Assembly (NCBI RefSeq): GCF_009914755.1 | Contig: NC_060940.1 | Strand: one strand, 5' to 3' | DNA: 64,000 nucleotides | Source of the DNA: the human T2T-CHM13v2.0 reference genome, Homo sapiens | Shown here: piece by piece, positions 55,901 to 60,160 of the stretch | How positions within the stretch are numbered: the stretch's first letter is position 1 | How the letters are laid out: each line of letters begins with the position of its first letter | Notes under the pieces: generated by a model | Database searches by the model: none | Seen by the model: the letters and a program-made list of their open reading frames with translations, nothing else | What the model was told of the DNA's origin: nothing | Translations under genes and position numbers: made by a program

Positions 55901-58900
55901 TGGGATTACAGGCGTCAGCCACCGTGACCGGCTCAGACTGTACTCTTCTAGCCATCTGAAATACGTTTTCTAGGTAGAGATAGATTGTGTAAGGGTACAG
56001 TTGTGAGGATAACAGAAACATGGCAGATTATTTAAAATCATCCTGAAAGTGGTGCTTTATCTGATGAAAGTGATTGTAATCCATAGGAAAATGTTTCAAC
56101 GTGCGCAAGAGTTGCGGCGGCGAGCAGAGGACTACCACAAATGCAAAGTAAGGAGCTTCCTCCCTGCAGTTGCAGGATAGTTCAGTGCTGATGCAGATGA
56201 TGCCACGGCCCTTAGACTCTCTCAACATTCAATTTCTCATGTGTTGGCTTTTTCAGATCCCCCCTTCTGCAAGAAAGGCTCTTTGCAACTGGGTAAGTTT
56301 GCTTGTTTTCCTTGCTTTTGGACATAGTCTGCCAGGTCAGGACATGGATACATTTTTCTCCCTACAGCTCTGTGCTCAAGCCCTGCAGAGGGAGATGGCA
56401 GAGAGAAAGGCTGCCTACAAGCATCACAGTCCCATCCCTGTTGGTAACCGTGTTGCGCAAAAACACCTTCATCCCCACCCAGTGGGGCCCCTGATCTAAT
56501 ATTCTAAGTGTCAGAGGTTCCGTATTTGTAATAGCAGATGGGCCCTGACTGTAAACTAGTGAAGAGTGAATGTAACTTATTACCCACAGGGACAATTCCA
56601 AATGAAGGCCTTAAATGATGCTCAGCTAAGCTGGTTCTTGTGTGGCCTCTGTACCTTCAAAAGCTGCCGAGTCCTATGATTACACGTGATGGGACTTGTA
56701 CACTTGAAGTGAAACACAGTTTTAAAACTTGCTTTGTTTAGAATTCCCACCTCATTTTTCCATGGACAAAAGTATTCTTTATGTCCTAGTGCACTTACAA
56801 TTTGGTATTACCTGGGAGTGAAAAGAAATATTACAGCCATGCCTAAGTGACTTCTTGAGGTGAGATTGTTCTGTCAGAAAACCCTCTCCCAGTTCCCCTG
56901 CAGCTCTTCAGGAATCCACATCTCTCCAGAGCTCTTTGTTCTCATGGGTGGCACCTCCAGAGTGAAGAAGATCCTTTGTCAAGAAGGGAAACAGAGGGGA
57001 AATGAGAGGGTCCTGCAGGCAGAGCTGGAATCAACTTCCACTCTGCCTCTTGCAAGCTGTGTGACCCTGGGCACAATTTCTCCTTCCTCTGGAAACCTCT
57101 GTTTTCTTAGATTTGGAGCAGGGTGGTCACACTGACCTTGCAGAGTTCTGAGAATCAGAGACAGAACATAAAAGGCCTGGAAAACATTCTCCAAAAAGAA
57201 GCTGCAACATGTGTGGACAGTGGGCTTTTCATGCCTCTCTTACTGTCTCTTACTGTCTGTTGACCTGGTGCAAGAAACATGCTCTGGTGATGGCTGTGAG
57301 GGAGGAATGAGGATAGACATAGACACTCCTGTGTCTCAAACATGCTTCTTTATTACTCTGTTATGACTCTGTCTTCCCTGGGGCAGGACCCCAGCCTGCC
57401 TACATTTGCAGACAGACACAGTGGCATGTGGAGACAACAGTGTGTCCCAATGACTTTCCTTTACCCTCCAGCTGTCGGCAGTACTCAGTGGAAGGGTGAT
57501 ATTATGACACTGATACTGCTATTTTGAAACCTGGAGGATGGAAAGGTGCAAAAATCTATCACCAGCAACAGAAGGTGCAGACTGTGTTGGTGGCGGTAAT
57601 TTTGTCCATCAAATGAATATGTGTGAAAACATTCCCTCCTTTGGCCCTACAGGTCAGAATGGCGGCAGCGGAGCATCGTCATTCTTCAGGATTGCCCTAC
57701 TGGCCCTACCTCACAGCTGAAACTTTAAAAAACAGGATGGGCCACCAGCCACCTCCTCCAACTCAACAACATTCTATAACTGATAACTCCCTGAGCCTCA
57801 AGACACCTCCCGAGTGTCTGCTCACTCCCCTTCCACCCTCAGCGGATGATAATCTCAAGACACCTCCCGAGTGTGTGCTCACTCCCCTTCCACCCTCAGC
57901 GGATGATAATCTCAAGACACCTCCCGAGTGTGTGCTCACTCCCCTTCCACCCTCAGCGGATGATAATCTCAAGACACCTCCTGAGTGTCTGCTCACTCCC
58001 CTTCCACCCTCAGCGGATGATAATCTCAAGACACCTCCCGAGTGTCTACTCACTCCCCTTCCACCCTCAGCTCTACCCTCAGCTCCACCCTCAGCGGATG
58101 ATAATCTCAAGACACGTGCCGAGTGTCTGCTCCATCCCCTTCCACCCTCAGCGGATGATAATCTCAAGACACTTTCCGAGCGTCAGCTCACTCCCCTTCC
58201 ACCCTCAGCTCCACCCTCAGCAGATGATAATATCAAGACACCTGCCGAGCGTCTGCGGGGGCCGCTTCCACCCTCAGCGGATGATAATCTCAAGACACCT
58301 TCCGAGCGTCAGCTCACTCCCCTTCCACCCTCAGCTCCACCCTCAGCAGATGATAATATCAAGACACCTGCCGAGCGTCTGCGGGGGCCGCTTCCACCCT
58401 CAGCGGATGATAATCTCAAGACACCTTCCGAGCGTCAGCTCACTCCCCTTCCACCCTCAGCTCCACCCTCAGCAGATGATAATATCAAGACACCTGCCGA
58501 GCGTCTGCGGGGGCCGCTTCCACCCTCAGCGGATGATAATCTCAAGACACCTTCCGAGCGTCAGCTCACTGCCCTTCCACCCTCAGCAGATGATAATATC
58601 AATACACCTGCCGAGCGTCTGCGGGGGCCGCTTCCACCCTCAGCGGATGATAATCTCAAGACACCTTCCGAGCGTCAGCTCACTCCCCTTCCACCCTCAG
58701 CTCCACCCTCAGCAGATGATAATATCAAGACACCTGCCTTCCACCCTCAGCGGATGATCTCAAGACACCTTCCGAGCGTCAGCTCACTCCCCTTCCACCC
58801 TCAGCTCCACCCTCAGCAGATGATAATATCAAGATACCTGCTGAGCGTCTGCGGATTCCGCTTCCACCATCAGCCGATGATAATCTCAAGACACCTTCCG

Positions 58901-60160
58901 AGCGTCAGCTCACTCCCCTTCCACCCTCAGCTCCACCCTCAGCAGATGATAATATCAAGACACCTGCCGAGCGTCTGCGGGGGCCGCTTCCACCCTGAGC
59001 GGATGATAATCTCAAGACACCTTCCGAGCGTCAGCTCACTCCCCTTCCACCCTCAGCTCCACCCTCAGCAGATGATAATATCAAGACACCTGCCGAGCGT
59101 CTGCGGGGGCCGCTTCCACCCTCAGCAGATGATAATCTCAAGACACCTTCCGAGCGTCAGCTCACTCCCCTTCCACCCTCAGCTCCACCCTCAGCAGATG
59201 ATAATATCAAGACACCTGCCGAGCGTCTGCGGGGGCCGCTTCCACCCTCAGCGGATGATAATCTCAAGACACCTTCCGAGCGTCAGCTCACTCCCCTTCC
59301 ACCCTCAGCTCCACCCTCAGCAGATGATAATATCAAGACACCTGCCGAGCGTCTGCGGGGAGCTTCTGCGGGGGCCGCTTCCACCCTCAGCGGATGATAA
59401 TCTCAAGACACCTTCCGAGCGTCAGCTCACTCCCCTTCCACCCTCAGCTCCACCCTCAGCAGATGATAATATCAAGACACCTGCCGAGCGTCTGCGGGGG
59501 CCGCTTCCACCCTCAGCGGATGATAATCTCAAGACACCTTCCGAGCGTCAGCTCACTCCCCTTCCACCCTCAGCTCCACCCTCAGCAGATGATAATATCA
59601 AGACACCTGCCGAGCGTCTGCGGGGGCCGCTTCCACCCTCAGCGGATGATAATCTCAAGACACCTTCCGAGCGTCAGCTCACTCCCCTTCCACCCTCAGC
59701 TCCACCCTCAGCAGATGATAATATCAAGACACCTGCCGAGCGTCTGCGGGGGCCGCTTCCACCCTCAGCCGATGATAATCTCAAGACACCTCCCTTAGCT
59801 ACTCAGGAGGCTGAGGCAGAAAAACCACGCAAACCCAAGAGGCAGAGGGCGGCTGAGATGGAACCACCTCCCGAACCCAAGAGGCGGAGGGTCGGTGACG
59901 TGGAACCGTCACGCAAACCCAAGAGGCGGAGGGCCGCTGACGTGGAACCATCATCACCCGAACCCAAGAGGCGGAGGGTCGGTGATGTGGAACCGTCACG
60001 CAAACCCAAGAGGCGGAGGGCCGCTGACGTGGAACCATCATCACCCGAACCCAAGAGGCGGAGGGTCGGTGACGTGGAACCGTCACGCAAACCCAAGAGG
60101 CGGAGGGCCGCTGACGTGGAACCATCATTACCCGAACCCAAGAGGCGGAGGTTGAGCTGA
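37822..60160 (+). CDS. NPIPB5: Nuclear pore complex-interacting protein family member B (NPIPB3/B4/B5 subfamily), 7 coding exons, 1049 aa
   Basis: join(37822-37941,47825-47953,51582-51681,51794-51989,56087-56147,56257-56292,57653-60160) has canonical splice sites, consistent phases and gives [11 protein letters not shown]...[12 protein letters not shown]...[11 protein letters not shown]...PKRRRLS*. Family is clear; paralog is a best guess. Confidence 0.9.
38857..38910. repeat. (CA)27 microsatellite at an Alu tail
   Basis: Perfect CA run. Confidence 0.95.
40136..40222 (+). pseudogene. Remnant of ACSM1-like terminal exon ([28 protein letters not shown])
   Basis: gccag|GTG acceptor; resembles the ACSM1 C-terminus as recalled (VEFVSELPKTITGKIERKELRKKETGQM*). 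Confidence 0.8.
43592..43990 (+). promoter_or_regulatory. Candidate promoter region: TATAAA followed by a (CCCCT)n polypyrimidine tract, upstream of the alternative NPIP first exon
   Basis: TATAAA at 43592-43597; C-rich tract about 43800-43990 (G-quadruplex potential on the - strand). Confidence 0.4.
44039..44113 (+). CDS. Alternative NPIP first coding exon [25 protein letters not shown] (signal-peptide-like)
   Basis: ATG, 25 codons, gtgagt donor in phase 0 matching exon 47825; resembles the N-termini of other NPIPB paralogs (MRLRFWLLIWLLLGFISHQ, recalled). Confidence 0.7.
44180..47472. mobile_element. Intronic Alu cluster, including a MER30 (about 46760-47586) split by two sense Alus
   Basis: Alu motifs; MER30 halves gcttgtc..aacacaaatttgtaaactttcttaaaac and tcatcagctatcgttagtgttagtg..atccctg. 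Confidence 0.82.
47825..47953 (+). CDS. NPIPB exon ([10 protein letters not shown]...IVYLW), hydrophobic segment
   Basis: ccag|G ... TGG|gtgagt; 129 nt. Confidence 0.92.
48285..48745. mobile_element. Probable ERV1-class LTR fragment (MER34/LTR48-like)
   Basis: ctctgaagattcact..ctgacaacagacagcttaacagga motif; subfamily uncertain. Confidence 0.4.
51582..51681 (+). CDS. NPIPB exon ([13 protein letters not shown]...RRRQE)
   Basis: cctag|G ... G|gtatgg; 100 nt. Confidence 0.92.
51794..51989 (+). CDS. NPIPB exon ([11 protein letters not shown]...KTARKQ)
   Basis: ccaag|G ... CA|gtaaga; 196 nt. Confidence 0.9.
56087..56147 (+). CDS. NPIPB exon ([20 protein letters not shown])
   Basis: catag|G ... 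AAA|gtaagg; 61 nt. Confidence 0.92.
56257..56292 (+). CDS. NPIPB micro-exon ([12 protein letters not shown])
   Basis: ttcag|A ... TGG|gtaagt; 36 nt. Confidence 0.92.
57653..60160 (+). CDS. NPIPB terminal exon coding part (835 aa, VNTR)
   Basis: tacag|GTC; open to TGA 60158-60160 (ORF 57623-60160). Confidence 0.93.
57797..59794 (+). repeat. Coding VNTR: 57-bp units, then alternating 69+57-bp (126-bp) higher-order units
   Basis: Recurring ccaccctcagcggatgataatctcaagacacct core. Confidence 0.97.

What the first reader, a model, noticed from the sequence alone, without database searches (positions are those of the whole stretch)
58738..59372. One VNTR read in two frames within one protein via compensating -19/+13 indels
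Seen: at 58738/58739 a 19-nt piece (gagcgtctgcgggggccgc) of the unit is missing. This switches translation from the Pro/Asp-rich [11 protein letters not shown] frame to the His/hydrophobic [23 protein letters not shown] frame for about 207 aa. A 13-nt duplication (59347-59359 repeated at 59360-59372) restores the first frame, so the KRRR tail is preserved. The repeat is open in two + strand frames (track ORFs 57846-58757 and 59394-59798); the third has GGA TGA TAA in every unit. Inference: small indels in this VNTR can act as domain switches. I recall this shifted repeat being present in annotated NPIPB proteins, so it is not wholly new.
Basis: partly seen in the sequence, partly recalled or inferred. 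Interest (0 to 1): 0.72.

Follow-up and report, generated by a model that had tools for sequence, protein, structure and literature searches.

The report
Known frame-switching repeat in human NPIPB5
In the human gene NPIPB5 one tandem DNA repeat is read in one frame, then another, then the first again; this is real and shared by eight gene copies, but it was already described in 2017 and 2025, and the middle stretch is likely a tolerated passenger.

Summary
The 2,508-nt last coding exon of NPIPB5 is one open frame; a net -19 at 58738/9 and a +13 duplication (59347-59372, 12 of 13 identical) bracket 207 residues read in the MIISR frame. It is no assembly error: 8 of 8 long-repeat copies fetched from this genome carry the +13, 7 of 8 the -19, one a -1 in the same unit. 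It is already known: Bekpen 2017 states the frameshift; Dishuck 2025 reports SADDN-MIISR-SADDN in 169 haplotypes and 8,986 Iso-Seq molecules; Pfam PF20885 is this repeat. Added here: a TGA (58996) closes the original frame inside the shifted block in 3 of 8 copies; the block is basic and His-rich, not hydrophobic; it shows no purifying signal (2 synonymous of 14); AlphaFold2 gives a low-confidence beta-solenoid for MIISR only (pLDDT 49-52), against the published 'both frames'. Best reading: an old compensated frameshift, likely kept because it preserves the basic tail, then lengthened by in-frame unit copying; not a live switch. Interest low.

The parts
57653..60160 (+). Last coding exon of NPIPB5 (NM_001395849.1), one open frame of 835 aa
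   Evidence: hub annotation
57797..58738 (+). VNTR block A1, read in the Pro/Asp SADDN frame (57-nt ancestral-type units, then alternating 69/57-nt units); acidic, 23% Pro
58715..58752 (+). Entry unit, 38 nt (net -19 at 58738/58739): shift into the MIISR frame
   Evidence: same unit in 7 of 8 long copies
58739..59359 (+). VNTR block B, 207 aa in the MIISR frame (Pfam PF20885); basic, His/Ser/Pro/Gln-rich
58753..58818 (+). 66-nt unit: extra in-frame 3-nt deletion, shared by L001, L006, L007
58819..58875 (+). Diverged 57-nt marker unit, second unit of block B; identical in 7 of 8 long copies and a related variant in L008
58996..58998 (+). TGA in the original (SADDN) frame inside block B; Gln>Glu in the frame that is read; in 3 of 8 copies
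59347..59372 (+). 13-nt tandem duplication (12 of 13 identical here): return to the SADDN frame
   Evidence: 70-nt unit in 8 of 8 long copies
59360..59794 (+). VNTR block A2, SADDN frame again
59796..59798 (+). TAG that would end the MIISR frame if the +13 were absent
59824..60160 (+). Second repeat (42/87-nt period) encoding the basic PKRRR tail, and the stop codon

Best explanation
This is the published frame-switching exon-8 VNTR of the long NPIPB genes: two inherited indels (net -19 and +13) make 207 residues of the repeat read in the second frame, and the pair was likely kept because together they preserve the basic C-terminal tail rather than for a function of the middle block. Shown: the two junctions, the open frame, their sharing among paralogues, unit-number variation in each of the three blocks. 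Inferred order: the -1-type shift came first, since alone it would read on without a stop to 59796 (a last exon, ending like NPIPA proteins but without the tail), whereas the +13 alone would meet a TGA at the next unit; the +13 then restored the tail, which holds predicted nuclear localisation signals. Afterwards whole units (multiples of 3) were likely gained and lost by unequal exchange or slippage, which changes block lengths but not frames, and segmental duplication spread the arrangement.
For: Units are all 3n except the two junction units. 8 of 8 long copies share the 70-nt exit unit; 7 of 8 the 38-nt entry unit, L008 a 56-nt one in the same position before the same marker unit. Anchor counts vary: A1 12-17, B 10-14, A2 5-11. 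Third frame has TGA at every anchor; frame B runs to 59796. 8 of 8 NPIPA-type loci fetched also slip into the MIISR frame near their end and lack the KRRR tail (+2 or -1 lesions seen in the 5 printed), so the frame is entered easily. Distinct substitutions in block B: 2 synonymous, 12 non-synonymous in the frame read (expected synonymous share 0.24, p=0.88), against 8 of 15 synonymous in blocks A (p=0.038). Literature: PMC12790995 section 10; 10.1101/116087 section 5 and passages: frameshift stated, NLS predicted in middle and C-terminal region, C-terminal part needed for nuclear localisation.
Against: The substitution test is tiny, non-independent (CpG change counted in several classes; 72 of 90 B units, 69 of 116 A1 units, 52 of 52 A2 units compared) and has no power to show neutrality. 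AlphaFold2 places a regular strand in every MIISR repeat, and the paper predicts a beta helix, so the block may fold and matter. All 8 long copies keep 10-14 B units. The order of events is not shown: no copy with only one of the two indels was found among the 8. No peptide evidence that the full-length protein is made was found; the paper itself calls proteomic support sparse.
Confidence: 0.65

Rival explanations
1. Block B is a new, selected structural domain: a basic, His-rich beta-solenoid of variable length set between acidic Pro-rich arms, arisen in the human lineage.
For: AlphaFold2 single-sequence models put one short strand per MIISR repeat, 10 of 10 repeats, none in the SADDN flanks; the model aligns to assorted beta-helix folds, best Z 8.9, rmsd 3.9, 184 aligned. 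Chai-1 beta helix, ~3.1 Mya origin and brain-enriched expression in PMC12790995. Two different entry lesions keep the same frame. Charge contrast -16 / +16 / -4.
Against: Mean pLDDT 48.9 and 52.0, five models 29-52; the Z values are at the level the tool calls typical for unrelated repeats and the top rows are tied; predictors tend to coil any tandem repeat into a solenoid (own knowledge). No synonymous excess in frame B. Any frame-keeping lesion survives merely by keeping the ORF.
Confidence: 0.2
2. The transcript is made but little full-length protein is; the ORF is kept only loosely and neither repeat frame matters.
For: Proteomic support is called sparse (PMC12790995); the full-length C-terminal repeat could not be cloned in 10.1101/116087; 'MIISRH' occurs in only two works of the library.
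Against: A 95-kDa band in human tissue and nuclear staining are reported; the ORF is intact in 8 of 8 long copies despite many indels; weak synonymous excess in blocks A.
Confidence: 0.1
3. The indels act as a live, reversible switch (phase-variation-like) that toggles or moves between alleles or cells.
For: L008 has a different entry lesion; NPIPA-type copies enter the frame by other lesions.
Against: Exit identical in size and place in 8 of 8, entry in the same unit in 8 of 8; the A-B-A pattern is reported within each paralogue over 169 haplotypes; a TGA blocks reversion in 3 of 8.
Confidence: 0.04
4. The indels are assembly or sequencing errors in a repeat.
For: Segmental duplications and VNTRs are error-prone (general knowledge; PMC12790995 passage).
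Against: Same junctions in eight separate loci; 8,986 Iso-Seq molecules with the pattern; the motif is described from a cloned cDNA in 2017.
Confidence: 0.01

Closest known systems
NPIPB3/B4/B5/B11/B12/B13 exon-8 VNTR (Dishuck et al. 2025, PMC12790995)
   Same: It is this feature: alternating 19/23-aa units, SADDN to MIISR and back, variable unit numbers; this copy's counts lie in or beside the published ranges.
   Different: The main text read gives no indel sizes ('19 bp', '13 bp': 0 hits), no -1 variant, no internal TGA; it predicts a beta helix for both frames, whereas AlphaFold2 here gives strands only in the MIISR frame, at low confidence.
NPIPB C-terminal repeats (Bekpen et al. 2017, bioRxiv 10.1101/116087)
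   Same: States that a simple frameshift converts the PLPPSA motif into the [10 protein letters not shown] motif and that both come from the same nucleotide sequence.
   Different: Thought the MIISR motif fixed at 12 copies; here 10-14 among 8 copies.
Pfam PF20885 NPB13-l_MII_rpt
   Same: Block B scores 579 bits against a cut-off of 36.
   Different: None; the family describes the product of the shifted frame only.
MUC1 VNTR frameshift (ADTKD-MUC1)
   Same: A coding VNTR read in a second frame gives a new repeat protein (search listing and abstract starts only).
   Different: There a single uncompensated, pathogenic frameshift; here a compensated pair fixed across paralogues with no disease link found.

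Membership tests
Long-VNTR NPIPB subfamily (PMC12790995) | Last coding exon with alternating 19- and 23-residue SADDN units | tested here: met
   57/69-nt units alternate
Long-VNTR NPIPB subfamily (PMC12790995) | [quoted passage not shown] | tested here: met
   10 B anchors, 7 A2 anchors in this copy
Long-VNTR NPIPB subfamily (PMC12790995) | MVKL start and PKRRR tail | tested here: met
   spliced CDS starts MVKL, ends with the KRRR repeat
Long-VNTR NPIPB subfamily (PMC12790995) | Predicted transmembrane segment near the N-terminus | tested here: inconclusive
   best 19-residue hydropathy mean 2.06 at residue 73; no dedicated predictor run
Long-VNTR NPIPB subfamily (PMC12790995) | Human-specific origin about 3.1 Mya | not testable with these tools
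   no ape genomes held (no relatives)
Pfam PF20885 | Score above the gathering cut-off | tested here: met
   579 bits, E 1.3e-175, cut-off 36
Beta-helix / beta-solenoid proteins | One strand-bearing turn per repeat, confidently folded: MIISR frame | tested here: inconclusive
   10 strands for 10 repeats but pLDDT 52, pTM 0.47; Z up to 8.9 to unrelated solenoids, tied
Beta-helix / beta-solenoid proteins | The same for the SADDN frame | tested here: inconclusive
   no strands, pLDDT about 40 in the flanks of the 413-aa model; single-sequence model, not folded alone; 23% Pro
Reversible phase-variable repeat switch | Frame state differs between alleles or copies | tested here: not met
   8 of 8 long copies have the same A-B-A state

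The most novel reading that the evidence does not exclude
Only the frameshifted MIISR block folds: a basic, His-rich beta-solenoid born from the off-frame of a disordered Pro-rich repeat, reached twice by different lesions in the same unit (-19 and -1), locked in by a stop in the old frame in part of the family, and now kept by selection as a human-specific length-tunable domain.
Probability: 0.12. Interest if true: 0.6.

Novelty: already known. Interest (0 to 1): 0.2.

Why it matters
As a phenomenon it is a neat example of new protein sequence arising from the second frame of a coding repeat in a fast-evolving human gene family, but it is in RefSeq, Pfam and two papers. What stays open is whether the shifted block is made, folds and does anything. 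The junction details found here (fixed exit, two entry lesions, internal stop) give paralogue-specific peptides and variants with which that can be tested.

Tried and rejected
Assembly error: rejected. Live toggling: rejected. 'Hydrophobic or membrane' reading of block B: rejected. Flank tree to order the -19 and -1 entries (10 loci, 2,143 columns): L008 falls among -19 copies but on a fork of 84/90 in a family known for gene conversion, so the order is unresolved; -19 may be -1 plus an in-frame -18, or L008 may have regained 18 nt from its neighbouring unit, which it resembles. Selection test: underpowered; units with more than 6 differences or other lengths were dropped (47 of 116 A1, 18 of 90 B, including the diverged marker unit). 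Fold search gave only generic solenoid matches at background level. Searches for peptide-level evidence gave nothing of use; an SLE autoantibody preprint names NPIPB3/B4/B11/B15 but the two passages seen do not say which part. A search for general literature on compensated frameshifts in repeats gave nothing relevant in the 12 of 31 listed. The supplement row for B5_1 is cut before the junction. No protein-homologue or atlas searches were run: the libraries are mainly microbial and Pfam already names the repeat.

Full report
Observation. The last coding exon of NPIPB5 (57653-60160) is one open frame of 835 residues, and the annotated exons splice to a 1049-residue protein. Cutting the repeat at each GATGAT anchor gives units of 57, 69, 66 and 81 nt, all multiples of three, with two exceptions: 38 nt at 58715 (net -19) and 70 nt at 59323 (+13). 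Between them, 58739-59359, 207 residues are read in the MIISR frame. Four corrections: the duplication matches at 12 of 13 bases; a further in-frame 3-nt deletion lies in the first shifted unit; the original frame has a TGA at 58996 inside the shifted block; and the block is basic and His-rich (net +16, His 12%, GRAVY -0.17), not hydrophobic. An open +1 frame appeared in 5.9% of 20,000 synonymous recodings of the 126-nt unit (equal codon use); the array is one such draw, copied.

Paralogues. A search of the own genome (40 of 180 candidates scored, so a lower bound) gave 30 loci, 4 of them overlapping others, hence 26 copies. Eight have the long repeat (L001-L008). All 8 are open to the KRRR tail and carry the 70-nt exit unit; 7 of 8 carry the 38-nt entry unit; L008 has a 56-nt unit (net -1) at the same place, before the same diverged marker unit. 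Anchor counts per block vary: 12-17, 10-14, 5-11. The TGA and the 3-nt deletion are shared by L001, L006 and L007, which also group on a flank tree (100/99). Eight NPIPA-type loci (L009-L016) end in or pass through the MIISR frame and have no KRRR tail; in the five printed, the lesions are +2 or -1. The other 10 copies have short repeats and no MIISR. The label 'NPIPA-type' rests on the missing tail and on recall; the loci carry no names in the calls.

Mechanism. Shown: fixed junctions, variable blocks. Inferred: a lone +13 would meet TGA at the next anchor, while a lone -19 or -1 would read on to the TAG at 59796, so the entry shift likely came first and the +13 restored the tail. Whether -19 is one event or -1 plus -18 is unresolved. 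Distinct substitutions against the modal units were 2 synonymous and 12 non-synonymous in block B in the frame read (p=0.88 for an excess), 8 of 15 synonymous in blocks A (p=0.038); 72 of 90, 69 of 116 and 52 of 52 units were compared, changes are not independent, and the test cannot prove neutrality. I put 0.65 on 'compensated, tolerated, tail-preserving', 0.2 on a selected new domain.

Structure. AlphaFold2 without an alignment gave mean pLDDT 48.9 for 58406-59644 and 52.0 for block B alone, with one short strand per MIISR repeat and none in the SADDN flanks. The block-B model matches assorted beta-helix proteins at Z up to 8.9 (rmsd 3.9, 184 aligned), tied and near background. This half agrees with the published Chai-1 prediction of a beta helix in both frames and is too weak to settle either way.

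What is known. PMC12790995 (seen: abstract, outline, passages, section 10 part 1 of 2, one supplement search; figures and one large supplement not seen) describes the SADDN-MIISR-SADDN switch in B3, B4, B5, B11, B12 and B13 from 169 haplotypes and 8,986 Iso-Seq molecules, dates it to about 3.1 Mya and calls proteomic support sparse. bioRxiv 10.1101/116087 (seen: passages; section 5 whole; figure S1 not visible) already says that a simple frameshift converts one motif into the other, predicts NLS in the middle and C-terminal region and reports a 95-kDa band. PMC7419210 (passages) describes lineage-specific changes of this repeat in apes. Pfam PF20885 matches block B at 579 bits. The indel sizes, the -1 variant and the internal TGA were not found in the text read, but unseen figures and supplements may hold them. 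MUC1 frameshift disease is an analogue (listing and abstract starts only).

Verdict. Real, already known, interest 0.2. The boldest reading not excluded, a folded and selected domain in the shifted frame only, has probability about 0.12.

Noticed in passing
L008 (G000:C16:29663496-29665820, - strand), exon offset 960: Enters the MIISR frame by a net -1 (56-nt unit) instead of -19, in the same unit; its entry unit shares variants with its own marker unit two units on, hinting at conversion within the array.
   Followed up: partly
L009-L016: Short-repeat copies without the KRRR tail end in the MIISR frame through a +2 dinucleotide slip (L009, L013-L015 printed); L016 has -1 then +2 and ends in the third frame.
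   Followed up: partly
window 58996-58998: Stop in the unused SADDN frame inside the shifted block, shared with L006 and L007 together with a 3-nt deletion at about 58757.
   Followed up: yes
window 59799-60155 (+) and 59799-60176, 59803-60312 (-): The KRRR-tail repeat also has long open alternative frames (118 aa on +; 125 and 169 aa on -, stop to stop).
   Followed up: no
window 57763-58182 (-): 139-aa stop-to-stop ORF on the minus strand over the 57-nt ancestral-type units.
   Followed up: no
window 58532-58588: 57-nt short form of the 69-nt unit (12 nt lost, in frame) in block A1.
   Followed up: no
window 60195-60291: Four AATAAA hexamers (60195, 60215, 60267, 60286) in the A-rich stretch after the stop.
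   Followed up: no
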